Positions 4,674 to 30,138 of a stretch of DNA of 64,000 nucleotides are shown here, piece by piece. A model generated the notes under the pieces. That model had not been told where the DNA came from, ran no database searches, and saw only the letters and a program-made list of their open reading frames with translations. How positions within the stretch are numbered: the stretch's first letter is position 1; every line of letters starts with the position of its first letter. The translations under genes were made by a program, and so were the position numbers. Source of the DNA: Promethearchaeati archaeon (lineage in GTDB: Archaea > Asgardarchaeota > Heimdallarchaeia > Heimdallarchaeales > Heimdallarchaeaceae); NCBI GenBank assembly GCA_013166775.1, contig JABLTJ010000004.1:96001-160000 (forward strand), given 5' to 3'.

Positions 4674-4683
4674 TGTTTAAAAT

Positions 4684-8221: not shown

Positions 8222-8267
8222 GTTTTATCTTATTTTTCACAACATTATTGTTTTAAAGAGAGGAATA

Positions 8268-8444: not shown

Positions 8445-8492
8445 TATATTTCACCAAAAAAATTTAAAACATACTTATTATCTTCTTTCCCT

Positions 8493-9443: not shown

Positions 9444-9446
9444 TTT

Positions 9447-9719: not shown

Positions 9720-9763
9720 GCTTCATGTTTTAGATTTAAATAGTTATTCCCGAATTATTGTAT

Positions 9764-10840: not shown

Positions 10841-10853
10841 TTTCCAGATTCAA

Positions 10854-13798: not shown

Positions 13799-13800
13799 TG

Positions 13801-15570
13801 TTATCCCGTCTCACTAGTTATATTGTTTTTAGATAAATGCTTTGTTCGTCCTAGTTTATTATTAATAAAATTGAAAACAGCTGAAAGAGGGAGTAAGAAT
13901 GAATAAATCAAATATAATGCACCTAAAGCTGTAATCAACAATACAAGAATTTCTCCATTAAGAATTAAACCTAAATTAGGTGTAAGCAACATCCCTAAAA
14001 CGAAATTGTTTACTACATGTAAGAAAATAGCTGCATGTAAACCATACTTATAGAAAGCATATCCAAAGATTAATCCAGCTACTGCAGCTTGGAAAATCTT
14101 CCCTTCTTGCCAATAAGGATAACCTAATTGATAGTGTACATACCCGAAACTATAGGATGAAAAGAGAAGAAAAAGAAAATCAATTAATCCTAATTTCTTC
14201 CAGCGTCCTGTTAGGTAAAAGAGGGGATTCTTAGGTTTTTTTTCAAATATATATCTTGCAACTCTAGACGAATTTGAATGATTTTTTTTGTTTCTTTTAA
14301 TCATTATTTGTGATAATTTTATTATTCCATAAAAAATACCATTTAGAATAAACAGAGGTAGTCCAAACAAAAGAAAACGATATGTTATTTCTTCATTAAA
14401 ACCAGCCCAATATAATTGTGATAACTGTACGTATAGTACATCATAATTGATATCTATTTGTGAAGCTATGGGTATTCCTAAATTAAGAAGAATAATGATT
14501 ATGAATGAAGCTAAAGCTAGATTTAAGCAAGCCAAGTTCATTACAGGAATTATATCACTGACCATTATTCGTTTGAAGAATTTCTCTGTTCTATTTTTCG
14601 AGGTTCCAGGCAAAGTTGATGGAGGGCTATATTCCTTTGGCTGAATATCAGGAGAGAGAATGTTGAATGCTATATCATCCATTGATTCTTCAGGAGAAAA
14701 ATCTCCAGCATCAGATGGTACTTCCTCTAATGACAGTTTTTTGTCCTTTCTAGGTAAGTAGAATAATAGAATAGTAATACCGAAGAGAGCAAAACACATT
14801 AAAGATTGAGTAAGTTTCCAATCAACGATAAATTTTGATGGAATTGAGGTTGATACAAAAAATTCTTGTCTAAAACCCAACTCAGCTTTGTAAGAGTAAA
14901 AGAAATTAGGATAAGTAAAAGAAAGATTTGCGACAACTGTATCAGAAGGTATTGAAGGAAAGACGATGAAAACAAGAAAATTAGAAACAACAAGCATTAT
15001 TGCTACAACAACCATACTATTTTTCCACAGTTTATTTATGGAATACTGAGATTGTTTAACAAGTGATCCCAAACCAATTTTCCTATCATCTGGTAAGATG
15101 ATTTCTTTATGGATCAGTAATCCAAGATGCTGTTCAATTTTCGGATAGGTGAAGATTCCAATTAGAGAGCTCAATATAGCTATTTGTAGAAATTGAAGTA
15201 GGTTAGTAGAGACTGTGATTAGGATAAAATTATCTCTGAAAATTGTTAAATAGACAATAATAGTATAAATCAGAATAATACCAAATAAAGGTAAGAAGAA
15301 TTTAAACAGATGAGTGAGTGCATTATCACCTTGATCCTTTTTATTTATTATAAACCATCTTCGAATTTTCCAACCATATAAAATGTAAAAGATTACTGAA
15401 ATGAAATAAATTACTATAGAAATTATGAAGCCTTGTTCTAGGTAGTAGAAGCCGAAATCAATATCATTGGCAGAGAATAAGGTAATCATAGTGTTTAATG
15501 CAGATAAAGCAAGAATGAAAACAGGAATAAAGAGTGTGTCAAGAATCATTCTACTGATATTCTTCCGCAT
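13801..15570 (-). CDS. CPBP (Rce1/Abi, CAAX protease type II) intramembrane protease with N-terminal multi-TM extension
   Basis: EEITYR (EExxxR), FGYVH (FxxxH) and HVVNN (HxxxN) motifs in the C-terminal TM domain. Confidence 0.85.
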   Translation of the reverse strand: MRKNISRMILDTLFIPVFILALSALNTMITLFSANDIDFGFYYLEQGFIISIVIYFISVIFYILYGWKIRRWFIINKKDQGDNALTHLFKFFLPLFGIILIYTIIVYLTIFRDNFILITVSTNLLQFLQIAILSSLIGIFTYPKIEQHLGLLIHKEIILPDDRKIGLGSLVKQSQYSINKLWKNSMVVVAIMLVVSNFLVFIVFPSIPSDTVVANLSFTYPNFFYSYKAELGFRQEFFVSTSIPSKFIVDWKLTQSLMCFALFGITILLFYLPRKDKKLSLEEVPSDAGDFSPEESMDDIAFNILSPDIQPKEYSPPSTLPGTSKNRTEKFFKRIMVSDIIPVMNLACLNLALASFIIIILLNLGIPIASQIDINYDVLYVQLSQLYWAGFNEEITYRFLLFGLPLFILNGIFYGIIKLSQIMIKRNKKNHSNSSRVARYIFEKKPKNPLFYLTGRWKKLGLIDFLFLLFSSYSFGYVHYQLGYPYWQEGKIFQAAVAGLIFGYAFYKYGLHAAIFLHVVNNFVLGMLLTPNLGLILNGEILVLLITALGALYLIYSFLLPLSAVFNFINNKLGRTKHLSKNNITSETG

Positions 15571-15736
15571 TTTAATGACCTTTAAATATTATTACTTAAA
15601 GTTCTTTTCAGTCTTTAGGTATTTATGAATTTTTGATATCCAATAGTTTAAGGAAAAGCTTTTAAACATGAATACGACTTTTTGTTCTAATTCAAACATA
15701 AGCAAACTAAAGACAACCGATTTACAGGTGTATTAT

Positions 15737-16156
15737 ATGAGCAAGAAAAAGAAAGATGAAAAAGAAGAAGTAGTTGAAGAGGAAGTCGAAGAAGAAGTAG
15801 GTGAAGAGGAAGCTGAAGAAAAAATAGTTGAAGAAGCAAAGAAAAAGAAGAAACCTGCTCCTAAAGCTAGAAGTGAAGAAGAGCGTCAAATAATCTACAT
15901 CGGTAAGAAGAACACCATTAGCTATGTTCTCGTTGCTGTAACTATATTAAATAAGCATGATAACTGTAATATCCAAGCGAGAGGAAGGCAAATCTCTAAA
16001 GCAGTTGATGTTGCAGAGATTACTCGCAGAAAATTCTTACAAGACATAGTTGAAGTAAGTGGTGTTATTATTGGTTCTGAAGATATCGCAAGTGATATAG
16101 AAGGAATGCCACCTAAGACTGTCTCTACAATTGAGATAATTATGAAGAAAAAATAG
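15737..16156 (+). CDS. albA: DNA/RNA-binding protein Alba with acidic/basic N-terminal extension
   Basis: IYIGKK...YV, ARGRQISKAVDVAE and VSTIEI motifs; start ATG 15737. Confidence 0.92.
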   Translation: MSKKKKDEKEEVVEEEVEEEVGEEEAEEKIVEEAKKKKKPAPKARSEEERQIIYIGKKNTISYVLVAVTILNKHDNCNIQARGRQISKAVDVAEITRRKFLQDIVEVSGVIIGSEDIASDIEGMPPKTVSTIEIIMKKK

Positions 16157-16213
16157 CAAAGTAAGATTCACTTAATAGAATTTTTTTCTTTAATTTTTTA
16201 TATATAATTGATG

Positions 16214-17623
16214 TTAGATGAAATCTCCTGTTTCAATCTTTTGAGGTAGATAGAAATTTGTAATATATTGTGGATCTCGAGCATTCAGAGCTTGTATTTC
16301 AGCTTTATACCCACTGGAAATTAGAATCTCTAACTGTTCTTTCCATCTTGGTTTTCTTACTACAAATTCCTCTTCTAGCATAAGCTTAGATCTATGAATA
16401 TCTTTGGCAGTCATTTTTAGGAGAGTGCTACTAGGAATATCAAAACCACTTTCTGGAGCTAGATCACTTGGAAGAAGCCCCAACCACTTAATGCTTGGTA
16501 CTGCTAAATGACTAGATTCGAAGCTTAGTGCTTTGCTTCCTACACTATAAACTCTCATGATTTCAAATCCATAGGGATCGGCATCCATAATCGCAAAAAT
16601 AGGGAGCTTCAATTCATCATCTATTTTTTTGAGAAACTGTCTTGTTGCAATATCTGGTTGTCCTTTTGCAGTTATTAGAATACTTGGCACATAATCATAA
16701 AAATGATCTTCTGCTAATCTATTAAAGACAGCATCTTTTTCTATTACTAATACAAATTCTGCATCAGAATCTAAATCTTCTATGTCATCTATATTCGGTG
16801 AAATAGCTTTTCCTGCTCCAATTGCTCTACAATTAATTAAATCACCTTTTTCCTTAAAATCTATGCGACCTACAACTATACCTTTAGAAGATGCACTTAT
16901 GTTGAGTGAGGATCTAGTTACTTGCAACATTGCGCTCAAATCCTCTAATAATGAATCAGAGACAGTTTGCTTCTCAAACGAATTAACATCCATGTAAAAT
17001 ACATCTCTTTTGGTACTATGAATATCTCTGGTAAGAATATCGTGAATAATCCTCATAATGATAGTCATTTGTTCCACAGAGCTTACAGATGCAAGATTAC
17101 GAAATTGTCGTTCAATCATTTGTCTTCCAATTAGAACGAGTTCTTGTTCTTCGTCAAATCCTACATTTGTTCCAGCTCTAGAGGGAATATAAAACGAAGC
17201 TTCAGATGGAGATAGCATTGCCTGTTGAAGAAAAGCCAAAGAGTATTCCACAAGCAAATTGTTGGTTTCTTCAGATGTTTTAGTATCTACATGAGTAACA
17301 CCAAAAGGCATAAAATGATCTAATTTATGTTCAAGTTCTTTACGAACATCTTGAATCTTTTTCAGAGAAACTGCGTTTTTTATACTGATTTTCATTGTTT
17401 CCTTTTGCAAAGGGTATCTTGATAATTTTCGAGTTGATTCCAGTTTGTACCATTTCTTTGCACTTCTGAGAAATAAAACAAAAGATCCTCGCCTAAGATC
17501 AAAGGCTTCTCTAGCCCATGAATACATTTCTCTAACTAAAATTTCTTTATCAAAACTAAATGGTTTTTCCAATGCGGGTATAATTGTTGAGTTTCTAAAT
17601 ATGAAATTAAATTCAGGTGGCAT
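16214..17623 (-). CDS. top6A: DNA topoisomerase VI subunit A with N-terminal ubiquitin-like extension
   Basis: TKRDVFY with the catalytic Tyr, Toprim VIEKDAVF and DADPYG, KAEIQAL. Confidence 0.95.
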   Translation of the reverse strand: MPPEFNFIFRNSTIIPALEKPFSFDKEILVREMYSWAREAFDLRRGSFVLFLRSAKKWYKLESTRKLSRYPLQKETMKISIKNAVSLKKIQDVRKELEHKLDHFMPFGVTHVDTKTSEETNNLLVEYSLAFLQQAMLSPSEASFYIPSRAGTNVGFDEEQELVLIGRQMIERQFRNLASVSSVEQMTIIMRIIHDILTRDIHSTKRDVFYMDVNSFEKQTVSDSLLEDLSAMLQVTRSSLNISASSKGIVVGRIDFKEKGDLINCRAIGAGKAISPNIDDIEDLDSDAEFVLVIEKDAVFNRLAEDHFYDYVPSILITAKGQPDIATRQFLKKIDDELKLPIFAIMDADPYGFEIMRVYSVGSKALSFESSHLAVPSIKWLGLLPSDLAPESGFDIPSSTLLKMTAKDIHRSKLMLEEEFVVRKPRWKEQLEILISSGYKAEIQALNARDPQYITNFYLPQKIETGDFI

Positions 17624-17625: not shown

Positions 17626-20600
17626 TTAATTACCCTCCTTTTTTTGGGTGTTTGAAGATTTCTTAACCGTTGTTGTATTTTTGTTACTTTTGGTCATATC
17701 CAACAAAGTTGTCTGTCTAGCTTTAGCTGATTTTCTATCGGCAGATTTTGTTGTAACTGAAGTTTTTGGTTTTACTGAGGTTGAACCAGCTTTTTTAGGT
17801 GTAGCTTTTTTAGTAACAGGTTTTGAGGTACTAGTTTTCTTAATGACTTTTACTTTCTTAGGTGGAAGTCTGCTTTTTAGGCTCTTGATAGCCATATAAC
17901 TGAGATCTGTTTTCTCATCGAGTTGCGCAGCTGGATAAACTACAAAATCTTTGATGGTGGTAATTCCTAATTGCTTGATTTGCTTAATTACTTCAGGTTT
18001 TATCTCTAAAGTTCCAATGGGTTGTTCAAGTATTCCTATCAGCTTCTTAACATTTGGATCCTTTAACGATGTGGAATTCTTCATCTCTGTATCTGGCATT
18101 AAAAGTGCTTGAAGAGTGGTTATACTACTTCCTTTCAATTGAGCTATATTACCTTCAGTAATATGTGGAAGTGTTTTTCTTATTTCGACTTGATCCTTTT
18201 CAGCTTGCTTGAGAGATTCAGGATTCAATGACGCATAAAGTGATCGAAGATCCTTTACAGGTAGTGTAATTATCTTAGAGAGCTGTTGAACTAGAGTTGC
18301 GAATAAATCCCATAAATTATTGATATTTTTGCTATGCAACAGAAAAACACTCTGAGCATTGATTTTAATCATGTCAGTAAGATAATAAATCGGGGTTTCC
18401 AGAAGTTTTTGTATTCGAGATATTTGAAGTTTATTTAATCTCGAAGTTGAAGCTATGAGTTCTTCTGAGGCTTTCAAATGAGCGATGGTTGTATAACCAG
18501 ATATCTTTAATAATTTCTTTGTGTTTTTATCGAACAAACCTATCTTATCTACAGGATAACTCTTGTTAACCAACGCATCTTTTATCGACAAGAGACTCAA
18601 GGAACTTTGTAATTTCTGTACAATTGTTTGTTCCTGTTCTGTAAGAGACATTTTTACAACTTTTCTTACATCTGGAACAACAATGAAATCAATAACTTGT
18701 ACGATTCCTGCTACTTCTAATTTAGAAATTAATCGTTCTTGATTAACAAACAGATTGATCGGAGCTCTTAGAGCAATAACTAATTCGACAAGTTCTGGCT
18801 CGTAATCTGCGATCTCCGTATTCTCTAGATGTTTAATCAGAGTACCGAAGGATCTAATTTTCTGTTTTCTGAGGAAAGGTGCTAACTCTGAACCGCGTAT
18901 AAAGCTAGACAATCTCTTCTGTTCATCGTCCAGCATTCTTTCCACTTTTGTTGAGGATAATTTAGGTAAAAGATTAGCACAACTCAGTTTATCGCTTTCA
19001 GGTGTAGTTGATTTGCAATAGAGCAATAAATCATAAATATTGACTAGCTTTAATTCTGATACAAGTTTCTGGATATTCTTGGATTGTCTAATAGGTGGTA
19101 ATGAAAGCAATTCTGTTTCTACCATAGAACAAACAGTTTCTGTGAGTTTCCAGAGAGAACTTGTTTTAGCACTAGATTGTCTATTGAAAATTATAGCTTC
19201 TTCAATTGAATAAATAGTGTTACTCTCTAATTGTGATATATTACTTCCACTAAGTAATTCAGAAGGTAGATTCGTCAATTCCTTTTCAAGATCATTTAAA
19301 AGACTAATTGATATATTTCTAAGATTTCTTAGGAATGTCGTTTCTGAGATCTGTTTCTTAATCTTGATACTATCTTCTAGCAATAACTCTCTGATATTTC
19401 TATATGGGAGTTTAGCTACTTGATCGATACTATTTCTAGTAGGAGCTAAGAGAATAGGAGATCTTGATAAAAATGGAACCAATTCCTTGAATCGCTTACT
19501 TATTTTTGAGTGTAGATGCGATTTTGTTTGGTCATAGATTGCAGTTTTATGCTTTTCAAGTAATAGTAAATATTCAATTGTTGAATCTGACATTTCCAAT
19601 TTCTGATCTTTAGATTCAAGATTGAGTATTTGAGATAGGGGTAAACCTTTACTAAAAATGAAATTAATTACAGTACTGATACTATCTCGCTGTTTTTTCT
19701 CCATGGTCATTTTATCTATGCTTGGAGCCAAATATGCAAGGTCTAATATTGATAAGGAAAACTCGGAAGTTGAATCAAAATCTTTCAAATTTAGTTGTTT
19801 AAAGATTTTTATCTTATCCAAGATATAGTTTGGAACTTTCTCAAGTTTTACTTTCTTCTCAAAAAGGTCTACATAAGTCTTGATGTCCTTTTGTTTCAGG
19901 ATGTCTATATCCTTTTTGGAGAATAATTTATTCTCTTTAATTATTGGATGATGACCAATGTTGCCTTCAGTTAATGAATAACGCAGTTTTTCAACTTCAG
20001 TTTGTTTAAGGGAAAGAATTGAAGATAACTCTTTGTTTGTTAATAAATATAAATCTTCAATTGTTTTAATCGATTGGAGTAACCTCTGCCAACTTTTTAT
20101 TGTTACATTAGGGAATAACAATAATTGTATTGGAGTATTCAATCTTCTTTGTATTTTGTTTCCTAAAGCTCTGGATATTGGATAATTTTCTTGTTTCAAA
20201 GAGTAGATTAAATCGTCCATTGTGGAATAATGTTTAAGAGTTTCTTTCTTCGTTTCAGCATCAAAAATCTTAATCTTACTTAGTTGAACTTTTTTGCTAA
20301 CATCTGTTTCTATCTTCTTATATGATAATGATGTTAGTGAAGTAATTATTGCTTCCTTGAATGAAGCAGGAGTCAAATTGGTCCAGAAAGAGCCAGGTTT
20401 GATAATAAGTTCACCAACAGTGAATACTCCTTTCAAGGCAAGATTTTCGGTATCAGACTTCGAAAGAAAAGACAATGAAGAAACAGGATTCTGGAATGAT
20501 TGATTGATTTTGTGTCCTAATATGCTTAATGAATCCTTATTCTGTTCTAAAACAGTGACTAAATCAACAACTGTGTTGACATTAGAGACACTAACCTTCT

Positions 20601-23600
20601 TTGAGAATAACTCACCTGGATTGTCATTTTCAAGATATTGTGAGAGTGGTATATAATCGCTTTTAACAGCTGTTTTGTTCGCAGAAAATAGTTTCATGAA
20701 TCCTATGATTTTATTCTTTTCAGCTTGAGTACTTGAGGAAATGAGTTCTTGTACTGTTGTTATTCCAGTTTCAAAATAATCTCTTTTGATATCTGAAAGG
20801 GTATGTTCTGATATACTTGGATAATACAGGATTGAGGTTGCTAGAGCTGATCTTGTTTTATTTCGTATTTGTTGTATTTTCTTCTCTGAAACAAGCCAGT
20901 CATAAATGGAGTTTCCTGCAAGTTCATCTAGAGAATAAATTCCTATCGATTTTAAGAAATTTCTATCTGCTGTTGATAAGAAAAAGAATTCATCAGCAAT
21001 CTTTTCAGCTATTGTATCAAGCTTTTGGATTATATTATCTATTTTAAAACTATCAATCTGATTTTGTATATCAGAAACTTTTGTCTTTGTCGTTGCTGCA
21101 ACTATACTAGGGGACATAAAGAATAAATCTGCTATAATTGTAAAATCAGCTTTTTTCCATTTATCTAGAATTTTTGGATCAACTTCTAGATATTTTAGAT
21201 TTGCTAGAAGATAAGGAGCAAATTTAGTATAAATCTCTTCATCTTCCTTAAATGAAGGAGAGGTTATAAGAGCCTTATATGACGAAAATCCTTTCTGCTG
21301 TAGAAAAACTTCCAACTCAGAGAGAGGTTCGACGAATCCAGATTCTCTTATACTTTTGATCAATGAGAGAGAATCCAGAATTTCCTCTTGAATATTCTTG
21401 GGAAGTTTCTTTATGAAAATAAGATGCTCAATGATTGTAGTTAGTCCTAGGTCATAACAAAAATCAATGGATTCTTGTGTAATAGTGGACAAGTAACTAA
21501 TGTTATATGACAGTTTATCTCTCAAAGCATTAATGTCATTTGATTTCAATCGTGTATTTTTCACAATATATTCAATAGGGATGAAATACAAGTGCTCGAT
21601 TGTAGAAACACCTATTTGAAGGAGTGGAGTGGTTAATTTAGCTGACAAGCTTAATTTCTCTAATCCTATTCCCTGTTTCTTTATATTTTTAAAGAGCTTA
21701 ACTAGATAATTTGGATCTTCTTTTTGATTATCAATTAGCTTATGCAAGCTAGGAGACCAGTTCTTTGGAGGGATTTCCAACAAGTTTGTGTAGGTTATAA
21801 CACTGTTGCTTAGCAAATCCTTAATCTCAGTATGTTTGAATTTTAGAGTCTTTCCGATTAGAGTAATTGGTGTTAAGAGATAAGAAGTAAGTTTCACTAT
21901 TTTGTTACGTTCTTCATTTGAGAAAGGTAATAAATCTAGATTCAGTTTCGATGCTTGAATAAGCGAAACACAACCATAATCAGCTAAGATTTTTCTTGTA
22001 TCTTGAGATATTTCAGGAAATAGGCTTAAATCCATTCCAGTTTGTTTAACATTTTGCTCCAGAAGTTTTATATCTTGAGTTGTTTTGTTTCGAGTAACCT
22101 GCTCTTCTGGAATCTTTGTAATTGCGGAGAGTAGAGGTGTAGGAACCAATAGGAATTGGTAAAGATTCCTTATACCATGTCCCTTAATTTTATCAATTTG
22201 CTTTGTTGAAAGATTATCGACTGAAGACAAGGGAAGGCTTTTCAGAGAGAGAATCAAGGGATAAACCTCAGCTAGTAAGCTTTCATTTTCAACAATCTTG
22301 CTATCTAGTGAGAGTAGTTCATCTAAAAAGATAATTTTTTCATCTTTTAGTTTCTTTAGAATAGATGGATCAGTTATTATTTTTGTATCTTCAAGTTTAA
22401 TTGCCCAATCTGGTGGACTGAATTGAATAATACTGCTATTCAGAAATTCAGTAGTCTTCGAATACAAACTTTGATATTGTTCATTTTGAGATAAAAGTAA
22501 TAATCCTGAGATTATATTTATTCCACCTATTTGAGCAAGAGACAGCAATTGTTTAACACTTAAGGACAAGTCAGAAGTAAGCCAAGAGATTGGTTTAAAC
22601 ATATTTGAAGTTGCAATTCTTATGATTGATTTCTCAAGATCATCTAGCTCAAAAACTGGATGAGGGATGAAATCAATTATCAATAATGCGCTTGATAATC
22701 CATATTTCATAAATTGTTTTTCTGCTTTGTTTGGGAATGACAAAGAATGATCTATAAACTGTGAAAATGTTTCAGACATTTTCTTACTTAATTCAAATTC
22801 TCTCTTAAAATTCCTTATTTCTGATGTTGTTTCTTTTGAAACACCGGTTAATTCACTTAAGTTAAGTGAGAGAAGTTCTATAACATGTTTGATCCCTTTG
22901 TTCCACAAAACTGATTTTGTAGGAATACTAATGCCAGGGATGGATAATACATTCAAACATAAGAAACTGACGAGCTGTTCGATGAATGCGATGCTTGAGG
23001 TTTTTACAATCTTATCTGATTCTGTTAGTTGCATTAAAGCCTCAGGTATGAACCCAAATAAGTCCTCTGCAGCTTTTTTAGTTGGATCAAATTCCAAGGA
23101 TTTTAGTAATTGAATTATAGGTTCATTTAGCTTTAATTGAGCACCTTTAGAGAGAGTAAAAGCTCCTTTCCTAATCTTACTTATTTCTTTGGGAACAGAA
23201 CCCTCGAATGCACTTTTAAGATCTTTATCTGAGCTATTGAATAGATCTATAAGTCTAAGAATTCCTTCTCCTATCAATCTTAGTTTATCCTCTGATGAAA
23301 GCTCTTTGATTCTATAAACAGAGATATGACATCCATTGAGAAATTCTCTCATGTAATCTCCTGAAACACTTATAGAGGGATAAGCTTGATAATTCAAACT
23401 ATACAAATCTTGTACATATTCTTTTCCAGTTCTAAGTAATGAAGCAATCTTTCCTTTTGATAATACACTGAATTCTTCGAGTTTTACTCCTTTTCTGTTG
23501 ACCTCTTTCATTAGGTTTTCAGGCGTTATTCGCTCTAAAAATCGCTGGACTTTCTTTTCACTCATTTTTAGAAGAAGAGCAATTGTAGATACATCTTCAG

Positions 23601-26600
23601 TTATAAATGAGAGAATATCCCCGACTCCTGAATAAATTAGCTTGCGAACTTGGTTATTATCCAAGCCTATGAATGCAACAGAAGCTCGGTATAGTTGAAC
23701 TTCTCTGAAGATGTCAAGTTTCACTAAAGCAGGACGCGACTCTCTAATTTCTTCCATGCGGGAAATAAAGTCCTGGATTGAGTTTATTCCAATATCATTC
23801 AGTTTCTCCAGATAATCTTCCTCTATAGAGGGGCAAACAGAAAGAGGAATTGCAGAACTTATACGTCTTTCAGCAAGTTCATCAAAAGAGATAAGATCTA
23901 ATGCATGAAACTCTTGATAAATTGGATTTTGAGTGATCTGATGTAACTCGTCTTTATTTACTAATGCAAGATCAATTACTGAATTTATCTCATGAAATTC
24001 TAATCGTTTCAATTCATCATATGAAAGAAATCCAATGAATCTTATAGATCCAGAAAGAAGCTCCTTTGCTTTCTTGTATTCTTCTATTGAAAGAATTTCA
24101 GAGATACCCATAATGCTTGCAGAATAAAAGAATGATTCAATATCGGAAACACCTATGTCTTTCAGATCTTCTATCTTCTTTTCTGACAAGTACTCTGAAG
24201 GTCTTATTATATGAGCTTGAGATAAGCGGAAAGCAACTATATCGGAATAGGTTAATGCATCTTTTATTTCTCTTATTTCTTTTTGAGAATTACCAGTTAT
24301 CTCAGAAATTTGTTTTACTGGAATTGAAAAGAAATCAATTAAAGTATTAACTGAGGATTTACTTAACTTGAGAGCAATTGATCTAGGTAATCCCATAGAA
24401 GCAATAGGAATTGCAAGCTCCATGATTAACCTGTCTAACGAATCATCTTCTAATAAACGAGTATAAAATGGTTGAAGAGCAGAATGTTCTTCAAAATCAA
24501 TTTCGAAAACATCTCCAATTATTACGTTTTTGTATTCTTCTCGTCTTGCTTTTCTAATTCGAGTAAAGAACGGTGTGATTCTTAGAGGAAGCTCCAAAAT
24601 TGATCGAATTAGGGTTAAATTATAATTCTCTGTTAGATATTGTTGATCCTTCCCCATTAGGTCTTTTATAACCTTATTATCGGTAATTACATCAAATAAT
24701 GTCTTATTCTCTATATCTTGAACTACTTTCTTGAAATAAGATGAATTATAAACAGTAGCAGGGAGATTCGCAAAATAATGAAATGCCTGCATTATAATGA
24801 TTTTTGAAGAATATGTTGATACAACACGGAACAGAACAGGATCTGTAAGATCTGCATCAGGAATGAAAAGCAATTGGTAAACATAATTGATGTTATTTTG
24901 CTCAAGAATCTCCATAGAAAACTCTGAAATCTCTGTGAAAATCTTTAATGGTAGTGTTAGATACTTCTGAACTGCAGAGATTTTTTTCCATATTTCTGGA
25001 TTGGAATAATAGTATTGCTCCTCTGTTGAGTAATATAGTTCTTGGATTGTTTGAAAACGCTCAAATTGAAATATTGAATCTCTACTTAATACTCTTTGCT
25101 CATGCTTATCAAATAGTTGTGTTTCAAAGGCAAAAATACCTTTGTTTTCATAGAGAGCTTGAATGCTAGATGTTGTCAAAGTTGTTATAATTTCCTTAAC
25201 CTCTTCTGGTTGAGCTTTTATTAATTTACTAGTTTTTTGAGCTGGAGCCATAATGAATTCTGCAATAGTTTGAATTCCATTTTCTCTAAGAATTTCAGTA
25301 TTGGTAAAGGATATAGATGGTAAGAAATAAACTGGTAATGAGAAGTAACCAAAGATATCGGATAAATCTAAAGCATTCTTTATGGTTTCAAATCTTTCAT
25401 CCGCAATTCCTGTCTTTTCCATAAGTGCTTCAGGTGAGGATAACATGAATCCAAGTAGAGTGGAAATACTAGCTTTTCTTAGTATTTCGATAATCTCTGG
25501 ATCTAACATATCTGATATATGATTGAGTGGAAGGTTCAAGATTGCTTTAAAAGATTCAATAACATACCAAGGTAGAGAATCTATTGTCCATTTGTCCTTT
25601 GAAGTTGAGAAGTACAGATCCTCAATTGTGACTATATTATGTATATCTAATTCTCTTACAATCCTAGGTTCTAAAATTCCAAGTTCTGATAGATCTATTC
25701 CAGTATCACTTATTCGTACATTCTTTTGCAGTGATCTAGCTTCTTCGATTTCAATACCTAGATACTCAATTAAATCTGAGGGTTGACTAACCAGTAAATC
25801 GATAATTTTTGTTATTCCATGATTACGAAGGGTGTTCAATTGTTGAGTAGATAGAGTAGAAACTAGTATATCATCTATATAACTATCTTCTTCTGTTTCC
25901 TCATCTTTTACTGCTCTCTTAATCTCTTGTTCCCAAGTCACTAAGGTTAATGGAGAACGTAGAAGTTTCCTAAATTTTTCTATCACATTCCAATTAACAA
26001 AAGCTGATGAAAATGTGAGAGGGTTTGCAAGATAGAAGATTTTGTCTATGGTATCGTATCCAGATAGAATTAAAGAAACAATCTCAGGAGAGGAGAATCT
26101 CTCAGACTCTTCAAATTCAAATGAAATTAAGGACTCATATTTATTCCCTTTTTTCTCAAAGAAGAAGGTTCCTTGTTTTAGAATTGAAAAATTCTCAAAT
26201 AGTTGTGTTACATTTTCCTCTTCTTTTCCAAGAATGGATGCTAATTCTGCAACAGTAAAATCAAAGATTTGATGGATGGCTATTATTCCATAATTTCTCA
26301 ATTTATCATAATCATCCAAAGTGAGACCACTAATTCTTGATATCGGAAGAGCTAGACTTCGTAGAAACTCATCATACTCGCTAATAAGAACTATTTGTTT
26401 ATTAAATTCACTCTCTTCATCGATATCTCTTGTTTTAATTTTATTGTATAAATTCAAAGCTAACTTTCTTTCTTTTGTTGAACTAAGTTCTGACTCAATT
26501 ATCTCAGGAAGCAAATCTAAAAACTGTCTGATTGTTACAATATTTCTTAATTTTAACTTTAGTAATGTATTTTTTAGTTCAGGATGCTCTTTGAACTTAC

Positions 26601-29600
26601 TAGAATATATTTGAGTAAGCTCGATTAATTCAAGATTAGAAAGTTTGTTCAGACTCTCAAAATTCTTCCAAAAATCTTGAGTTAATGATGGTTTTTCAGT
26701 AGGGTAGACACTGAAAAGATCCTGCAAATTAAGGTTAAATTGATCAAAATAACTAATGAATTTTGGAAAGATTTTCTTAAATATTTCAATATCTTTTCCA
26801 AAAGTAGCTCTGTTTTTATTAATTTCTTCTGCTGAAACAGTCTTCTTGAATTCTTCTATTTTTATTTCCGATAGATTTAGAATTTCTGCTAATTCACTGT
26901 TAGACCATAGTGTGAAACGACCTATGCAGTTTATACCCACATCATATAACAGATTAGAATTCTTACGAAGAGAGGGAAAAGCAAAAATCAGAGGAGTTCG
27001 GAGGAATGTTGAGATTTCTATATATTTTTTCTTGTTTTCTGATGATAAAGAATAGGCTTCTGGAGGATTATAAAACAGCTCTTCTAAGGTAACAATTCCT
27101 TCTGTTTTAAAGAATTCAGGTTCATCAATCCAAGAGGGTATAGGTACCCCCAGTTTCTTCTTAATCCACTCAATATCTTTTTTACGTAAACCAACTTTAC
27201 GTAATTGGGGAGAAGGATAAGCTAAGAAAGAAGAGGTTGTAAAAATTTGAAGAGCAGTCAAGTCTCTTTCAATATCTTGAGGTATGATTTTTATGTGAGA
27301 GAGATCTTTATCCTGTTTGGTCTCCCTAATATGAGATAAGAGTTTATATTTAGATTCTTTAAGTAAGAAATCGCGAAGCGATGCAAATTTCTTGTTATGA
27401 ATTGAATTTACTGGTAAATAAATTAAATCCAATAAAGTTGAGATCTTGTTTGTAGCTAGAATCTTCTTGACTTCTGATTCTTCTTGGTTTAAACTTTCAT
27501 CTGTTGTAAATTGTAACTTTGATAAAGAAATAGACTTCGAAGAAGAAGAAAGGATATCCATATAAGATGCATAGAGTTTTCGTTCAAGTTCTTTGATTAC
27601 TATTAGTTCATCAAGATTAGTATTCAGAAAATTCTCGATTGTTTTTATTTTTCTCCTGTGGAAAGCGTTCTTAGTATATGCATCCGTCCAATCAGGAGTC
27701 ATTTTAGTAATATTTGTTTTAGCAAAATCTGGGAATTTATCACATAATTGGGAATAAACATTCTGCATATAATTTACTAATATTGCAGTAATTTCTGCTT
27801 GATAATTTATAGTAGTAGGTAGTTTAGTTTGAAAGAGAAACTCCTCGATAGTTGTTTCTTGAGCGATTAAACCCTTAGAATTATCCTTTAGGTAATCAAA
27901 CGATGGGAATAAAGTCTGTATTTTTAGGTCTGTTGTTTTAGTCAAGGAAGCTATTAGTTGCTTACCTTCGGAGGAAATTGCAGCACCATTTTTCTTATTC
28001 CTATTGAGTAAAAACTGATGTAACAAATCTTCCCTCATATTTTCAAAAAGCTTCTCTGGTAAACCCGCAACTGATTGAAGTTTATAAAAATCAGTAGCAA
28101 AGTAATGATAACTATTTTGTATCCAACGTCTATACAAAGAGTCCTTTAAAGAATCAAATGATTTTCCATTGTCTGAAATAAATCTTTTTTCTATGGTTCT
28201 ACTCACAAAGATTTTAGGATCAAATCCTGGACTCATACCTTCCCTATCTAGTTCTGATATTGTTCTCAATTTTATGTTGTAAATATCCTCTTCAGAGAGC
28301 GATAGAAGAGTTACAAGTTCTTTTGAAGGGGTAATAAGAAAATCTGCAACAGACTCAATTTCTTTTGATTTCAAAGCTGATTGTATTCTTGAAGGACACC
28401 ATACATTGGCTCCAAAAAGTCTTTTTCCTAAAGGCATGAAGAGTTTGACTTTTTTCGTTGCTCCATGAGCAAGCGCTGCTGCAATTCGATCTGTTTCCAA
28501 CCTGAAATCAGTATAGCTTAGATCTTCATCTTCCAATATTTTTGTTAGATTCTCAACAATTATTGGAGCTGATCTAACAAAACGAGATAATCTTGCATGT
28601 TCTCTTCGTTTTCTTTTTGCTCTACTAAGAAAGGTCTTTAATCTTCTTCCTAATTGCATTAGAGCTAATCTAATTTCTTCCTCAATCTCTGGAACAATAG
28701 ATACATATTCCTTGCTAGTTTCTGGGAAGGGTATTTTTGTACTAACTAATGAAACAGCAATTGCTAATGGATCAGATTGTCTAGTAAGACCATAATCACT
28801 CCACCTTATTGAAGAGACAACATGTGTAATAACATCGTTCCCAGCACCAAAAACAAGAGGGATTCGATTAGCATAACGATATATTATCTTATTATCTGTT
28901 ACTGTCGCACCTTTTACTTGTGATGCTTCAGCTACTCCTCCACCATATCCTAATGCTGCTTCAATAACAAATGGATGTCCAGAGTAAGCTTTTGGAGCTC
29001 GAGTGATAGCTTCTACGAATTTTGGCTGTAATTCTTTTTCCAAACCTTTCCTTAATCGGTTTGATCCTAGAGGTGAAAGAGCTGTTCCTCTTGGGGCATC
29101 AAACTGGAAAATTCTATCTCTTTTTCTCTTTACATCTTTAGCTTCTTGATATGCTTTCACGAATCCTTCATGAACAATTCTTCGAATCTCATGAGATGTG
29201 ATATCTTTTGGGGATTTGTTTGGATCTATCTCTAGGAGCTGGAAGAAATGCTCTGCTATTTCCTCATTCACTCCCATAAATTGTGTGGCTAGAAATTCCT
29301 TCAATTTCTTGCTTCTAGTCACTGCTAATTCAGCTTTAAACTGTGTAATATCACACCCCCAAGGATGAATTTTCACTGGTTGAGGAGGTGGAGGCATATC
29401 ATCGACAACACTCTCATAGTCCAACTCCTCTGTTTCTCCTTCCTTGTCACCTGGTAATCTAACTTTGAAGCTTGAGTAAGGAGTAATAATTGCTAACTGT
29501 TTGAAATACTCCTTCACACTATTTTTCGCTAATCTCCAAGCACCTGTAAATGTAATTGAAATTTCCAAACCTGGTTCTTCCAAATAATTAGGATCTCCTG

Positions 29601-30138
29601 GAAGATATTCATGCTGTTCCATAATAATTGGTTCATTCTTTTCCAGGTTAATCATCAAGTGCATTTCATGGGTTATATCGTCCATGAAATACCTACTACG
29701 AATCTTAGCGGGGAGATCTACAGAAGACATTGAATAAAGCAAACACATTTTTGCTCCTAAACCGAATCTTCCACGTGTCTGAATAACACCATATTTAGTT
29801 CCTGTTAAAACTCTCCCAAATAGATCTGCAATCTCATTACCAGGAACTCCAACACCATTATCTCTGCATGATAATTGAAGAAAATCTAAATGCTTTTCCA
29901 GTTTCTTGTATTGTGTTACATCCAATAGCTCATTAATTTCTCTACTGGATAATTTTCTTAAATCAATAGAAATAATTGGACTAGTTCCTCTCTTTTCTGC
30001 TGAATCCAAGCCATTTTCAACTAATTCTCTTATGCTAGTAAAGACTGCTCTCATAGAATTTCCAAAGCCTGCAATAGCTCTATTCTCATTAAAAAAAGCT
30101 GCTGCAGACATCTTCTTTGTGATAGAATTTTCAGACAC
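17626..30138 (-). CDS. top6B: giant DNA topoisomerase VI subunit B (4170 aa) with about 3500 aa of HhH-like repeats
   Basis: First ~560 aa: ELVENGLD, DNGVG, GRFGLGAK, KIHPWG, H2TH, RYANRIPL, STKIPF..SKE; uninterrupted frame; adjacent to top6A. Confidence 0.93.
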   Translation of the reverse strand: MSENSITKKMSAAAFFNENRAIAGFGNSMRAVFTSIRELVENGLDSAEKRGTSPIISIDLRKLSSREINELLDVTQYKKLEKHLDFLQLSCRDNGVGVPGNEIADLFGRVLTGTKYGVIQTRGRFGLGAKMCLLYSMSSVDLPAKIRSRYFMDDITHEMHLMINLEKNEPIIMEQHEYLPGDPNYLEEPGLEISITFTGAWRLAKNSVKEYFKQLAIITPYSSFKVRLPGDKEGETEELDYESVVDDMPPPPQPVKIHPWGCDITQFKAELAVTRSKKLKEFLATQFMGVNEEIAEHFFQLLEIDPNKSPKDITSHEIRRIVHEGFVKAYQEAKDVKRKRDRIFQFDAPRGTALSPLGSNRLRKGLEKELQPKFVEAITRAPKAYSGHPFVIEAALGYGGGVAEASQVKGATVTDNKIIYRYANRIPLVFGAGNDVITHVVSSIRWSDYGLTRQSDPLAIAVSLVSTKIPFPETSKEYVSIVPEIEEEIRLALMQLGRRLKTFLSRAKRKRREHARLSRFVRSAPIIVENLTKILEDEDLSYTDFRLETDRIAAALAHGATKKVKLFMPLGKRLFGANVWCPSRIQSALKSKEIESVADFLITPSKELVTLLSLSEEDIYNIKLRTISELDREGMSPGFDPKIFVSRTIEKRFISDNGKSFDSLKDSLYRRWIQNSYHYFATDFYKLQSVAGLPEKLFENMREDLLHQFLLNRNKKNGAAISSEGKQLIASLTKTTDLKIQTLFPSFDYLKDNSKGLIAQETTIEEFLFQTKLPTTINYQAEITAILVNYMQNVYSQLCDKFPDFAKTNITKMTPDWTDAYTKNAFHRRKIKTIENFLNTNLDELIVIKELERKLYASYMDILSSSSKSISLSKLQFTTDESLNQEESEVKKILATNKISTLLDLIYLPVNSIHNKKFASLRDFLLKESKYKLLSHIRETKQDKDLSHIKIIPQDIERDLTALQIFTTSSFLAYPSPQLRKVGLRKKDIEWIKKKLGVPIPSWIDEPEFFKTEGIVTLEELFYNPPEAYSLSSENKKKYIEISTFLRTPLIFAFPSLRKNSNLLYDVGINCIGRFTLWSNSELAEILNLSEIKIEEFKKTVSAEEINKNRATFGKDIEIFKKIFPKFISYFDQFNLNLQDLFSVYPTEKPSLTQDFWKNFESLNKLSNLELIELTQIYSSKFKEHPELKNTLLKLKLRNIVTIRQFLDLLPEIIESELSSTKERKLALNLYNKIKTRDIDEESEFNKQIVLISEYDEFLRSLALPISRISGLTLDDYDKLRNYGIIAIHQIFDFTVAELASILGKEEENVTQLFENFSILKQGTFFFEKKGNKYESLISFEFEESERFSSPEIVSLILSGYDTIDKIFYLANPLTFSSAFVNWNVIEKFRKLLRSPLTLVTWEQEIKRAVKDEETEEDSYIDDILVSTLSTQQLNTLRNHGITKIIDLLVSQPSDLIEYLGIEIEEARSLQKNVRISDTGIDLSELGILEPRIVRELDIHNIVTIEDLYFSTSKDKWTIDSLPWYVIESFKAILNLPLNHISDMLDPEIIEILRKASISTLLGFMLSSPEALMEKTGIADERFETIKNALDLSDIFGYFSLPVYFLPSISFTNTEILRENGIQTIAEFIMAPAQKTSKLIKAQPEEVKEIITTLTTSSIQALYENKGIFAFETQLFDKHEQRVLSRDSIFQFERFQTIQELYYSTEEQYYYSNPEIWKKISAVQKYLTLPLKIFTEISEFSMEILEQNNINYVYQLLFIPDADLTDPVLFRVVSTYSSKIIIMQAFHYFANLPATVYNSSYFKKVVQDIENKTLFDVITDNKVIKDLMGKDQQYLTENYNLTLIRSILELPLRITPFFTRIRKARREEYKNVIIGDVFEIDFEEHSALQPFYTRLLEDDSLDRLIMELAIPIASMGLPRSIALKLSKSSVNTLIDFFSIPVKQISEITGNSQKEIREIKDALTYSDIVAFRLSQAHIIRPSEYLSEKKIEDLKDIGVSDIESFFYSASIMGISEILSIEEYKKAKELLSGSIRFIGFLSYDELKRLEFHEINSVIDLALVNKDELHQITQNPIYQEFHALDLISFDELAERRISSAIPLSVCPSIEEDYLEKLNDIGINSIQDFISRMEEIRESRPALVKLDIFREVQLYRASVAFIGLDNNQVRKLIYSGVGDILSFITEDVSTIALLLKMSEKKVQRFLERITPENLMKEVNRKGVKLEEFSVLSKGKIASLLRTGKEYVQDLYSLNYQAYPSISVSGDYMREFLNGCHISVYRIKELSSEDKLRLIGEGILRLIDLFNSSDKDLKSAFEGSVPKEISKIRKGAFTLSKGAQLKLNEPIIQLLKSLEFDPTKKAAEDLFGFIPEALMQLTESDKIVKTSSIAFIEQLVSFLCLNVLSIPGISIPTKSVLWNKGIKHVIELLSLNLSELTGVSKETTSEIRNFKREFELSKKMSETFSQFIDHSLSFPNKAEKQFMKYGLSSALLIIDFIPHPVFELDDLEKSIIRIATSNMFKPISWLTSDLSLSVKQLLSLAQIGGINIISGLLLLSQNEQYQSLYSKTTEFLNSSIIQFSPPDWAIKLEDTKIITDPSILKKLKDEKIIFLDELLSLDSKIVENESLLAEVYPLILSLKSLPLSSVDNLSTKQIDKIKGHGIRNLYQFLLVPTPLLSAITKIPEEQVTRNKTTQDIKLLEQNVKQTGMDLSLFPEISQDTRKILADYGCVSLIQASKLNLDLLPFSNEERNKIVKLTSYLLTPITLIGKTLKFKHTEIKDLLSNSVITYTNLLEIPPKNWSPSLHKLIDNQKEDPNYLVKLFKNIKKQGIGLEKLSLSAKLTTPLLQIGVSTIEHLYFIPIEYIVKNTRLKSNDINALRDKLSYNISYLSTITQESIDFCYDLGLTTIIEHLIFIKKLPKNIQEEILDSLSLIKSIRESGFVEPLSELEVFLQQKGFSSYKALITSPSFKEDEEIYTKFAPYLLANLKYLEVDPKILDKWKKADFTIIADLFFMSPSIVAATTKTKVSDIQNQIDSFKIDNIIQKLDTIAEKIADEFFFLSTADRNFLKSIGIYSLDELAGNSIYDWLVSEKKIQQIRNKTRSALATSILYYPSISEHTLSDIKRDYFETGITTVQELISSSTQAEKNKIIGFMKLFSANKTAVKSDYIPLSQYLENDNPGELFSKKVSVSNVNTVVDLVTVLEQNKDSLSILGHKINQSFQNPVSSLSFLSKSDTENLALKGVFTVGELIIKPGSFWTNLTPASFKEAIITSLTSLSYKKIETDVSKKVQLSKIKIFDAETKKETLKHYSTMDDLIYSLKQENYPISRALGNKIQRRLNTPIQLLLFPNVTIKSWQRLLQSIKTIEDLYLLTNKELSSILSLKQTEVEKLRYSLTEGNIGHHPIIKENKLFSKKDIDILKQKDIKTYVDLFEKKVKLEKVPNYILDKIKIFKQLNLKDFDSTSEFSLSILDLAYLAPSIDKMTMEKKQRDSISTVINFIFSKGLPLSQILNLESKDQKLEMSDSTIEYLLLLEKHKTAIYDQTKSHLHSKISKRFKELVPFLSRSPILLAPTRNSIDQVAKLPYRNIRELLLEDSIKIKKQISETTFLRNLRNISISLLNDLEKELTNLPSELLSGSNISQLESNTIYSIEEAIIFNRQSSAKTSSLWKLTETVCSMVETELLSLPPIRQSKNIQKLVSELKLVNIYDLLLYCKSTTPESDKLSCANLLPKLSSTKVERMLDDEQKRLSSFIRGSELAPFLRKQKIRSFGTLIKHLENTEIADYEPELVELVIALRAPINLFVNQERLISKLEVAGIVQVIDFIVVPDVRKVVKMSLTEQEQTIVQKLQSSLSLLSIKDALVNKSYPVDKIGLFDKNTKKLLKISGYTTIAHLKASEELIASTSRLNKLQISRIQKLLETPIYYLTDMIKINAQSVFLLHSKNINNLWDLFATLVQQLSKIITLPVKDLRSLYASLNPESLKQAEKDQVEIRKTLPHITEGNIAQLKGSSITTLQALLMPDTEMKNSTSLKDPNVKKLIGILEQPIGTLEIKPEVIKQIKQLGITTIKDFVVYPAAQLDEKTDLSYMAIKSLKSRLPPKKVKVIKKTSTSKPVTKKATPKKAGSTSVKPKTSVTTKSADRKSAKARQTTLLDMTKSNKNTTTVKKSSNTQKKEGN
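17631..17640 (-). promoter_or_regulatory. Shine-Dalgarno site for top6A within the end of top6B
   Basis: AAGGAGGGTA 7 nt before the top6A ATG; stop-to-start gap of 2 bp implies translational coupling. Confidence 0.65.
17870..28440 (-). repeat. protein-level tandem array of ~60-aa HhH/SAM-like repeats
   Basis: Recurrent L..(G/N)I.T(I/V).(D/E)(L/F) motif preceded by L..P(I/L)..L, e.g. EGIVTLEELF, HGITKIIDLL, NGIQTIAEFI, IGINSIQDFI, IGVSTIEHLY, TGITTVQELI, LGITTIKDFV; no DNA-level identity seen. Confidence 0.8.

What the first reader, a model, noticed from the sequence alone, without database searches (positions are those of the whole stretch)
17375..17623. Ubiquitin-like domain fused to the N-terminus of Topo VI A (Spo11 homologue)
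Seen: an ~85-aa extension before the Top6A core. Residues 61-75, LESTRKLSRYPLQKE, match ubiquitin 50-64, LEDGRTLSDYNIQKE, at 9 of 15 positions without gaps. The upstream pattern (FNFIFR, KPFSF, helix VREMYSWAREAF, FVLFL) fits a beta-grasp fold. There is no di-Gly, so it is an integral UBL and not a modifier. Inference: a docking module that could recruit Cdc48/proteasome to trapped covalent Topo-DNA complexes, or bind the giant B subunit. Both subunits of this enzyme carry unusual additions.
Basis: partly seen in the sequence, partly recalled or inferred. Interest (0 to 1): 0.85.

Follow-up and report, generated by a model that had tools for sequence, protein, structure and literature searches.

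The report
Ubiquitin-like domain on Asgard Top6A
The DNA-cutting subunit of topoisomerase VI in this Heimdall-group Asgard archaeon really does begin with a built-in, non-conjugatable ubiquitin-like domain; it appears only where the partner subunit is giant, I found it in no paper, and its function is untested.

Summary
Top6A (window 16214-17623, minus strand, 469 aa) starts with an 85-residue beta-grasp domain.

Evidence that the domain is real:
- The AF2 model has pLDDT 89.
- Foldseek and VIA top hits are ubiquitin, ISG15, SUMO and the TBCE UBL.
- A profile of 68 homologous N-termini hits mono-ubiquitin at E about 1e-5.
- Two relatives pass Pfam's cut-offs for ubiquitin and Rad60-SLD.

The start codon is sound. 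It has a GGAGGG Shine-Dalgarno 9 nt upstream and lies 2 nt after the Top6B stop. The segment is conserved and under purifying selection. There is no C-terminal Gly-Gly, so this is an integral domain and not a modifier.

Distribution in 300 Asgard genomes: the UBL is found only in the window's own class (families f1-f5 and f7, but not f6) and in f20. On a tree built from core columns alone, UBL-bearing Top6A form one side of a single branch. Every UBL-Top6A whose partner gene is complete sits next to a Top6B of 2,286-4,305 aa. Top6A without the UBL pair with Top6B of about 500-1,350 aa. f20 genomes carry both kinds of pair side by side.

Function is inferred only. My best guess (about 0.4) is a docking or organising module at the A-B junction, at the base of the giant HhH arm. 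The scan's first readers noted this same stretch twice more.

The parts
17369..17623 (-). Ubiquitin-like beta-grasp domain, Top6A residues 1-85
   Evidence: AF2 pLDDT 89.1 with bbabb(3-10)b topology. Foldseek top hits are ubiquitin and UBLs at probability 1.0. VIA Z about 12.7, rmsd 1.6 A over 76 residues to the ISG15 C-domain. The family profile hits ubiquitin at E about 1e-5.
17315..17368 (-). Short hydrophobic linker (V85, L87), helix 88-100 and a low-confidence stretch, residues 86-103. The helix is shared with Asgard Top6A that lack the UBL.
   Evidence: DSSP and pLDDT of the full-length model; column conservation; LxKVRELR-type helix at the N-termini of non-UBL forms.
16217..17314 (-). 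Canonical Top6A/Spo11 core, residues 104-469. It includes the invariant P106 (PYGV motif), the winged helix with catalytic Tyr210 (TP6A_N 183-242 = 16898-17077) and the Toprim domain (290-463 = 16235-16756).
   Evidence: Pfam PF04406 at 5e-20 and PF21180 at 3e-58; invariant columns; Z 33-37 to M. mazei and S. shibatae Top6A.
17633..17638 (-). Shine-Dalgarno-like GGAGGG, 9 nt upstream of the Top6A ATG, inside the last codons of Top6B
   Evidence: Read directly from the sequence.
17626..30138 (-). Giant Top6B (4170 aa), translationally coupled partner; its stop lies 2 nt before the Top6A ATG
   Evidence: ORF list; Topo-VIb transducer at 349-515; 41 homologues of 2,294-4,341 aa.

Best explanation
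Shown (about 0.95): the first 85 residues of this Top6A are a genuine, translated, integral ubiquitin-like beta-grasp domain. It lacks the C-terminal Gly-Gly of a modifier. A 3-residue hydrophobic linker joins it to a conserved helix, which leads into the canonical Top6A N-terminus. The domain was most simply acquired once. It is kept in the Heimdallarchaeaceae, Kariarchaeaceae and Hodarchaeales-type families and in one further Asgard family. In every case it travels in an operon with a Top6B enlarged to 2,286-4,305 aa by a helix-hairpin-helix array. Inferred (about 0.4): the UBL is a protein-protein docking or organising module inside the holoenzyme. In solved Topo VI and Spo11 complexes the N-terminal part of the A subunit contacts the end of the B 'stalk'. 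That places the UBL at the A-B junction, where the giant C-terminal arm of Top6B leaves the core and where the G-segment DNA runs. I propose that its conserved surface buttresses or positions the base of that arm. This surface includes a Phe at the ubiquitin Ile44 position, a beta3 strand that is hydrophobic on both faces, and an invariant K/R at the Arg72 position.
For: Fold and homology. P0073 and P0084 pass Pfam's cut-offs for PF00240 and PF11976, and they align with the window's N-terminus. Start and selection. No GG: the consensus after b5 is V-K-R-x-V-D-L. Distribution, with the UBL profile on 300 Asgard genomes: f1 26/28, f2 11/11, f3 1/1, f4 3/3, f5 19/21, f7 1/2, f20 3/5, and none in f6 (0/11), f11 (0/76) or f17 (0/19). 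Three weak hits (E 3.5e-4 to 6.2e-4) fell elsewhere, one each in f8, f14 and f24; none lies at the start of a ~470-aa Top6A frame (open frames of 88, 96 and 402 aa). Tree of 51 core sequences with the UBL columns removed: UBL versus no UBL needs 1 change, branch SH-aLRT 100. Partner size: B frames are 2,286-4,305 aa next to UBL-Top6A wherever the frame is not cut. The shorter frames all end at contig ends or N-gaps. B frames are 498-1,353 aa in non-UBL genomes. Within one genome (G041) the order is B557-A387, then a HEAT protein, then B2289-UBL-A463. Position: solved Top6A chains begin at model residues 114-116. The Top6B stalk connects to Top6A and lines the G-segment path (PMC5922973). The N-terminal extension of yeast Spo11 contacts Rec102 and Rec104 (PMC11746154). 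In family f11 the same Top6A N-terminus carries two HhH domains, so this junction is a recurrent attachment site for accessory arms. Conserved surface: F51 is 87% Phe, K82 is 100% K/R, and positions 48-52 are all hydrophobic.
Against: No direct evidence of any UBL-Top6B contact. On the tree the co-occurrence amounts to one evolutionary event, so shared ancestry alone could explain it. Family f6 has a 1,114-aa HhH-bearing Top6B without a UBL on Top6A, so an HhH arm as such does not need the UBL. The window's own UBL gets no Pfam hit. I could not inspect model coordinates or PAE, so I could not check whether F51 is exposed or packed against the helix. The tree was a quick search, without eukaryotes or an outgroup, so gain cannot be told from loss.
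Confidence: 0.5

Rival explanations
1. Recruitment handle. The UBL acts as a permanent ubiquitin/SUMO-like mark that is read by ubiquitin receptors of the Asgard ubiquitin system (UEV/ESCRT-I, Cdc48 adaptors, the proteasome). These would extract or degrade Top6A trapped covalently on DNA, or localise the enzyme.
For: The profile is closer to eukaryotic ubiquitin than to anything else in the PDB. The Ile44-equivalent position is a conserved Phe. The best Pfam match of the relative P0073 is Rad60-SLD, an integral SUMO-like domain of a genome-stability protein. The window's genome encodes free ubiquitin (83 aa, ending ...GGF), a ThiF-type E1, E2s and a Vps23(UEV)-Vps28 fusion.
Against: No receptor is linked to the operon in the four neighbourhoods I read. 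Other Asgard families have Top6A without the UBL, so it is not a general Asgard feature. Shuttle-type UBLs hang on long flexible linkers, whereas this one joins the next helix through 3 conserved hydrophobic-rich residues. UBA was not found in the genome, which is 89% complete.
Confidence: 0.2
2. Cis-acting DNA-proximal or regulatory module. The basic UBL lies beside the G-segment exit path. It either extends the DNA-binding surface or gates Top6A dimerisation and cleavage, as the Parkin and USP UBLs regulate their enzymes in cis.
For: The UBL is basic while the core is acidic: median pI 9.6 against 5.1, and +8 against -17 in the window protein. Non-UBL Asgard Top6A often carry K/R-rich tails or HhH domains at the same N-terminus. 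The stalk region next to this junction is an essential DNA-binding surface in M. mazei Topo VI (PMC5922973).
Against: Net charge varies from -5 to +12 across homologues. Lys-rich composition is common in low-GC genomes. Beta-grasp UBLs rarely bind DNA. No structural evidence.
Confidence: 0.2
3. Annotation artefact. The true start is Met77, giving a 393-aa protein of canonical length, and the upstream frame is an untranslated spacer that resembles ubiquitin by chance.
For: Met77 would give a canonical length. Pfam finds nothing in the window's own residues 1-99.
Against: The frame is open and conserved from residue 1 in 65 genomes. Met77 is not conserved. A Shine-Dalgarno sequence and stop-start coupling lie at the upstream ATG. 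dN/dS is well below 1. The fold is confident and the profile is significant. 0 of 3000 shuffles reach the 9/15 match.
Confidence: 0.02

Closest known systems
Canonical archaeal Top6A (S. shibatae 2zbk_A, 389 aa; M. mazei 2q2e_A, 369 aa; M. jannaschii 1d3y)
   Same: Residues 104-469 share the winged helix with the catalytic Tyr, the Toprim domain and the N-terminal B-binding segment. Profile E is 2.7e-81 to 2zbk_A, and Z is 33-37. The gene is adjacent to Top6B.
   Different: About 103 extra N-terminal residues (UBL plus helix). The partner B subunit is about 8 times the normal size.
Ubiquitin, ISG15 and SUMO (conjugatable beta-grasp modifiers)
   Same: Same fold and detectable sequence homology. 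The profile covers ubiquitin 7-71 at 28 bits. TM is 0.6-0.8, Z about 12 and rmsd 1.4-1.8 A. There is a hydrophobic residue at the Ile44 position and a basic one at Arg72.
   Different: No C-terminal Gly-Gly; the chain runs on into Top6A. There is a 4-residue insertion (KKWY) in the b3-b4 hairpin. The His68 and Val70 equivalents are polar. The domain is only remotely similar to the organism's own ubiquitin (hhalign probability 70%, E 4e-5; BLASTP finds nothing).
Integral UBL/SLD domains of eukaryotic genome-maintenance proteins (Rad60/NIP45 SUMO-like domains; Rad23 N-terminal UBL)
   Same: A non-conjugatable ubiquitin- or SUMO-like domain built into a DNA-metabolism protein. The relatives P0073 and P0084 exceed the Pfam Rad60-SLD cut-off (32.6 and 31.6 bits against 23.8).
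   Different: The host protein is different (a type IIB topoisomerase), and the window's own sequence does not reach the cut-off. Partner binding (Ubc9, STUbL, proteasome) is untested. The linker is short and rigid-looking, not a long tether.
Other N-terminal additions to Asgard Top6A (family f11: basic tail plus two HhH domains, 709-776 aa)
   Same: An accessory module attached at the same N-terminus of Top6A.
   Different: That module is a DNA-binding HhH pair, not a UBL, and its partner Top6B is 682 aa, not giant.

Membership tests
Topoisomerase VI subunit A / Spo11 | Winged-helix (TP6A_N) domain with the catalytic tyrosine | tested here: met
   PF04406 at residues 183-242, 71.5 bits against a cut-off of 26. 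Y210 in the K-R-D-x-F-Y motif is invariant in 68 homologues.
Topoisomerase VI subunit A / Spo11 | Toprim domain with the conserved acidic metal-binding residues | tested here: met
   PF21180 at residues 290-463, 197 bits. E295, D347 and D349 are invariant. Z is 33-37 to solved Top6A.
Topoisomerase VI subunit A / Spo11 | Partner Top6B (GHKL plus transducer) encoded alongside | tested here: met
   Top6B at 17626-30138 ends 2 nt before the Top6A start. The transducer domain PF09239 scores 182.8 bits.
Ubiquitin-like beta-grasp superfamily | b-b-a-b-b-(3-10)-b topology with a mixed sheet gripping one helix | tested here: met
   AF2 of residues 1-92: pLDDT 89.1, elements E4-11, E18-25, H30-41, E48-54, E57-60, E77-83. 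The elements are the same in the full-length model. These are predicted models, not solved structures.
Ubiquitin-like beta-grasp superfamily | Structural match to solved ubiquitin or UBL domains | tested here: met
   Foldseek finds 43 hits at E <= 1e-3, almost all ubiquitin or UBL, at probability 1.0. VIA gives Z 11.5-12.7 over 75-82 residues. The nearest Atlas clusters carry PF00240, PF11976 or PF14560.
Ubiquitin-like beta-grasp superfamily | Sequence-profile homology to the ubiquitin family | tested here: met
   The family profile hits mono-ubiquitin at E about 1e-5 and polyubiquitins down to 2e-42. P0073 and P0084 pass Pfam's cut-offs. The window's own sequence alone gives no Pfam hit.
Conjugatable ubiquitin-like modifier | Exposed or processable C-terminal Gly-Gly | tested here: not met
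   After b5 the sequence reads IKNAVSLKK and the family consensus is V-K-R-x-V-D-L. There is no GG, and the chain continues into Top6A.
Rad60-SLD (PF11976) integral SUMO-like domain | Score above the Pfam gathering cut-off | tested here: inconclusive
   Met in the relatives P0073 (32.6 bits) and P0084 (31.6 bits) against a cut-off of 23.8. Not met in the window protein or in most other homologues.
Rad23/Dsk2-type shuttle UBL | Binding to proteasome, Cdc48 or other ubiquitin receptors | not testable with these tools
   Needs binding assays. I established only that ubiquitin, E1, E2 and UEV genes are present in the genome.

The most novel reading that the evidence does not exclude
In the archaeal lineage closest to eukaryotes, a type IIB topoisomerase carries a hard-wired ubiquitin/SUMO-like mark that is read by the cell's ubiquitin receptors (UEV/ESCRT-I, Cdc48 or the proteasome). 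These would control or remove the enzyme when it is trapped on DNA. That would be a pre-eukaryotic forerunner of the ubiquitin- and SUMO-dependent handling of topoisomerase-DNA adducts.
Probability: 0.15. Interest if true: 0.85.

Novelty: new variant of a known kind. Interest (0 to 1): 0.62.

Why it matters
Topo VI and Spo11 is one of the enzyme systems that eukaryotes inherited from archaea, and Asgard Top6A has recently been listed as a eukaryote-like signature protein (PMC12680538). The Heimdall-group enzyme differs from every characterised Topo VI in both subunits at once: a UBL on A and an HhH arm of thousands of residues on B. This suggests a distinct holoenzyme architecture, and perhaps regulation through ubiquitin-like recognition. 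The UBL is also a clean synapomorphy-like marker. On the core tree it needs one change, so it separates this Top6A/Top6B pair from the ordinary pair that coexists with it in some genomes. That bears on the use of Top6A as a phylogenetic marker, where mixing of orthologues has already been reported (PMC12411855). The hypothesis can be tested directly with recombinant protein. No paper in the searchable library mentions the domain. Only automatic annotation does: precomputed Pfam hits on two clusters, and an ESM Atlas cluster named 'ubiquitin-like protein'.

Tried and rejected
1. Complex prediction with Top6B 440-959, Top6A 104-469 and UBL 1-103 as the partner gave no verdict. The score did not depend on Top6B. 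I use it neither for nor against binding.
2. Pfam on the window's own residues 1-99 and 1-120 found only sub-threshold noise (YlbE).
3. BLASTP of the UBL against the genome's own ubiquitin found no similarity. hhalign was only moderate (70%). A recent duplication of the resident ubiquitin is therefore rejected.
4. The exhaustive profile search confirmed ubiquitin homology, but its top 150 hits were polyubiquitins. It gave no distribution data, so I used genome searches instead.
5. dN/dS: dS is saturated (above 1) in all pairs, so the ratios are only rough.
6. I looked for a conserved third gene next to the operon and found none. The neighbours are an Alba gene (window), a HEAT protein (G041), gyrB-gyrA (G256) and others (G054).
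7. UBA (PF00627) was not found in the 89%-complete genome.
8. Literature: five searches and eleven papers read for Asgard, Topo VI and ubiquitin terms. None describes the UBL.
9. Model coordinates and PAE were not available, so I could not compute the exposure of F51 or the UBL-core packing.
10. I did not test eukaryotic Top6A/Spo11 N-termini, because no sequences were on hand by reference.

Full report
**Gene and start codon.** The finding lies at the 5' end of a minus-strand ORF, 16214..17623, that encodes a 469-aa protein (P0001). Pfam places the Top6A/Spo11 winged helix at residues 183-242 and the Toprim domain at 290-463. The gene follows a 4170-aa Top6B (17626..30138). On the coding strand the junction reads ...AAG GAG GGT AAT TAA AA ATG. 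The Top6B stop is therefore 2 nt from the Top6A ATG, and a GGAGGG Shine-Dalgarno-like hexamer lies 9 nt upstream of that ATG.

The alternative start Met77 would give a canonical-length protein, but that position is not conserved as Met. The frame is open and alignable from residue 1 in 65 of 300 Asgard genomes. Within-genus comparisons give dN/dS of about 0.07-0.16 for codons 2-85 and about 0.04-0.05 for the core. dS is saturated, so these values are rough. The segment is coding and constrained, and it evolves a few times faster than the core.

It is the best 15-residue window in the protein, and none of 3000 shuffles reached it. The stronger evidence is this:
- The same profile hits polyubiquitins down to 2e-42 in the 1.84-billion-protein library.
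- Two relatives, P0073 and P0084, exceed Pfam's curated cut-offs for both ubiquitin and Rad60-SLD, and they align with the window's N-terminus.
- AF2 on residues 1-92 gives pLDDT 89.1 and the topology b-b-a-b-b-(3-10)-b.
- Foldseek's best PDB matches are almost all ubiquitin, ubiquitin variants, ISG15, SUMO2, FAT10, Hub1 and the TBCE UBL, at probability 1.0.
- VIA-align gives Z of about 12-12.7 with rmsd 1.4-1.8 A over 75-82 residues.
- An ESM Atlas cluster of 463-aa Heimdall-group proteins that carry both Top6A Pfam families is automatically named 'ubiquitin-like protein'.

The window's own sequence alone gets no Pfam hit, and it is only remotely related to the genome's own 83-aa ubiquitin. 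There is no Gly-Gly. After b5 the family consensus is V-K-R-x-V-D-L, and the chain continues.

**Anatomy.** S. shibatae Top6A residue 6 aligns to profile position 109. Solved Top6A chains begin at model residues 114-116. The addition is thus about 103 residues and has four parts:
- the UBL (1-85);
- a 3-residue linker with conserved V85 and L87;
- a helix (88-100);
- a lower-confidence stretch that leads to the invariant P106 of a P-Y-G-V motif.

The helix also occurs in Asgard Top6A that lack the UBL, so the UBL itself is the lineage-specific part.

The core positions of the fold are conserved. In addition, F51 is 87% Phe and aligns to ubiquitin Ile44. K82 is 100% K/R and aligns to Arg72. All five residues of b3 (48-52) are hydrophobic. 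A KKW(Y) insertion lengthens the b3-b4 hairpin. The UBL is usually basic (median pI 9.6; +8 in the window protein), whereas the core is acidic (median pI 5.1). The UBL's charge ranges from -5 to +12 across homologues.

**Distribution.** The 120 best database homologues are all about 461-496 aa, apart from one 434-aa protein (P0043) and a 280-aa fragment (P0113). The names they carry are Heimdallarchaeaceae, Kariarchaeaceae, Hodarchaeales or generic Asgard labels.

The UBL profile was searched in 300 Asgard genomes:

| Family | Genomes with the UBL at the start of a ~470-aa Top6A frame |
|---|---|
| f1 | 26/28 |
| f2 | 11/11 |
| f3 | 1/1 |
| f4 | 3/3 |
| f5 | 19/21 |
| f7 | 1/2 |
| f20 | 3/5 |
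| f6 (same class as the window) | 0/11 |
| f11 | 0/76 |
| f17 | 0/19 |

Three weak hits (E 3.5e-4 to 6.2e-4) fell in f8, f14 and f24. None lies at the start of a Top6A-sized frame.

Non-UBL genomes have Top6A frames of about 390-420 aa. I built a maximum-likelihood tree of 51 sequences from core columns only, with 29 UBL and 22 non-UBL rows (quick search). UBL-bearing proteins fall on one side of a single branch with SH-aLRT 100, so one change of state suffices. Without an outgroup or eukaryotes I cannot tell gain from loss. Published trees place eukaryotic Top6A nearer to Njordarchaeales than to Hodarchaeales (PMC12395588). That would fit eukaryotes descending from a UBL-less form, but I did not test it.

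**Co-occurrence with the giant Top6B.** I searched 66 genomes spanning 29 of the 30 families (all but f26) with the Top6B core.
- Every UBL-type genome has a Top6B open frame of 2,286-4,305 aa, unless the frame is cut: f1 4,175-4,305; f3 4,244; f2 up to 3,473; f5 2,312-2,342; f20 2,286-2,297.
- All shorter frames end at contig ends or 100-N scaffold gaps.
- Non-UBL genomes have Top6B frames of 498-1,353 aa.
- f20 gives a within-genome control. G041 carries, on one strand, B(557 aa)-A(387 aa, no UBL), then a 967-aa HEAT-repeat gene, then B(2,289 aa)-A(463 aa, with UBL). G050 has the same two pairs. The G041 UBL-Top6A is P0073, the most ubiquitin-like member.
- The genes are adjacent in G256 and G054 as well.

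The UBL-Top6A and the giant Top6B are therefore inherited as a unit. Because this amounts to one event on the tree, it carries no statistical weight for a functional link. Family f6 also has a 1,114-aa HhH-bearing Top6B without a UBL on Top6A. An earlier agent of this scan described the giant Top6B as a normal core plus about 55-58 HhH domains and a basic tail (e1-5550218). I confirmed only its size, its transducer domain and the HhH Pfam hits in relatives.

**Mechanism (inferred).** In solved Topo VI the C-terminal stalk of Top6B connects to Top6A and lines the G-segment path (PMC5922973). In the yeast Spo11 core complex an N-terminal extension of Spo11 contacts the B-like partners Rec102 and Rec104 (PMC11746154). 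The UBL lies about 20-30 residues N-terminal to the segment that aligns with the first ordered residues of solved Top6A. It should therefore sit at the A-B junction, where the giant arm leaves Top6B.

In family f11 the same Top6A N-terminus carries a basic tail and two HhH domains (709-776 aa). That marks the junction as a recurrent attachment point for accessory arms in Asgard Topo VI.

The short hydrophobic linker argues for a fixed module rather than a tethered one. The conserved hydrophobic and basic surface residues suggest a binding surface. My ranking is:
- a docking or organising module for the giant holoenzyme, about 0.4;
- a handle read by ubiquitin receptors, about 0.2; the genome has ubiquitin, an E1, E2s and a Vps23(UEV)-Vps28 fusion;
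- a DNA-proximal or cis-regulatory module, about 0.2.

The one complex prediction I could run returned no verdict, and I do not use it as evidence.

**Novelty.** Searches of the open literature for Asgard or Heimdall, topoisomerase VI, Top6A or Spo11, and ubiquitin-like or beta-grasp found no description of this domain. This includes a 2025 study that names Asgard Top6A a eukaryote-like protein on the basis of a motif insertion (PMC12680538). Automatic annotation has seen it. I class it as a new variant of a known kind: a Topo VI A subunit with a new, lineage-restricted domain architecture, coupled to a giant B subunit.

Noticed in passing
L045 (G005:C63:63000-68500) 784-2913, minus strand; also L046 1622-3952: In Asgard family f11 the Top6A is 709-776 aa. 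Its N-terminus carries a Lys-rich tail and two HhH domains (Pfam HHH_5, 68 bits) ahead of the normal core. Its Top6B is 682 aa. HhH modules can therefore sit on the A subunit's N-terminus as well as on the B subunit's C-terminus.
   Followed up: partly
L002 (G041:C6:512000-531500) 3362-17606, minus strand: Two Topo VI gene pairs lie in tandem in one genome: an ordinary pair (B 557 aa, A 387 aa) and a giant/UBL pair (B 2289 aa, A 463 aa). A 967-aa HEAT-repeat protein separates them.
   Followed up: partly
L004 (G256:C1:4648000-4667000) 10743-15220, minus strand: gyrB (656 aa) and gyrA (826 aa) lie immediately upstream of the giant Top6B and UBL-Top6A on the same strand, with gaps of 13-20 nt. 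This looks like a four-gene type II topoisomerase cluster.
   Followed up: no
L003 (G235:C39:173000-182000) 2479-7097, plus strand: Family f6 (same class as the window) has a mid-sized Top6B (1114 aa) with several HhH domains. It is paired with a 403-aa Top6A that has no UBL, and the genome holds a second ordinary Top6B elsewhere.
   Followed up: partly
window 15668-16156, plus strand: An Alba-domain protein (162 aa, Pfam 51 bits) with a long acidic then Lys-rich N-terminal extension, convergent with the 3' end of Top6A.
   Followed up: no
L026 (G000:C27:8500-13000) 251-3153, minus strand: The genome's ubiquitin cluster holds an 83-aa ubiquitin ending ...GGF, a ThiF-type E1 (334 aa) and a single 468-aa protein that combines UEV/Vps23 core and Vps28 domains (an ESCRT-I fusion).
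   Followed up: partly
G111:C215:46495-47895 and G223:C316:17516-18916 (family f4): The UBL-Top6A matches in both f4 genomes contain one in-frame TGA. This could be a sequencing error, a pseudogene or recoding.
   Followed up: no
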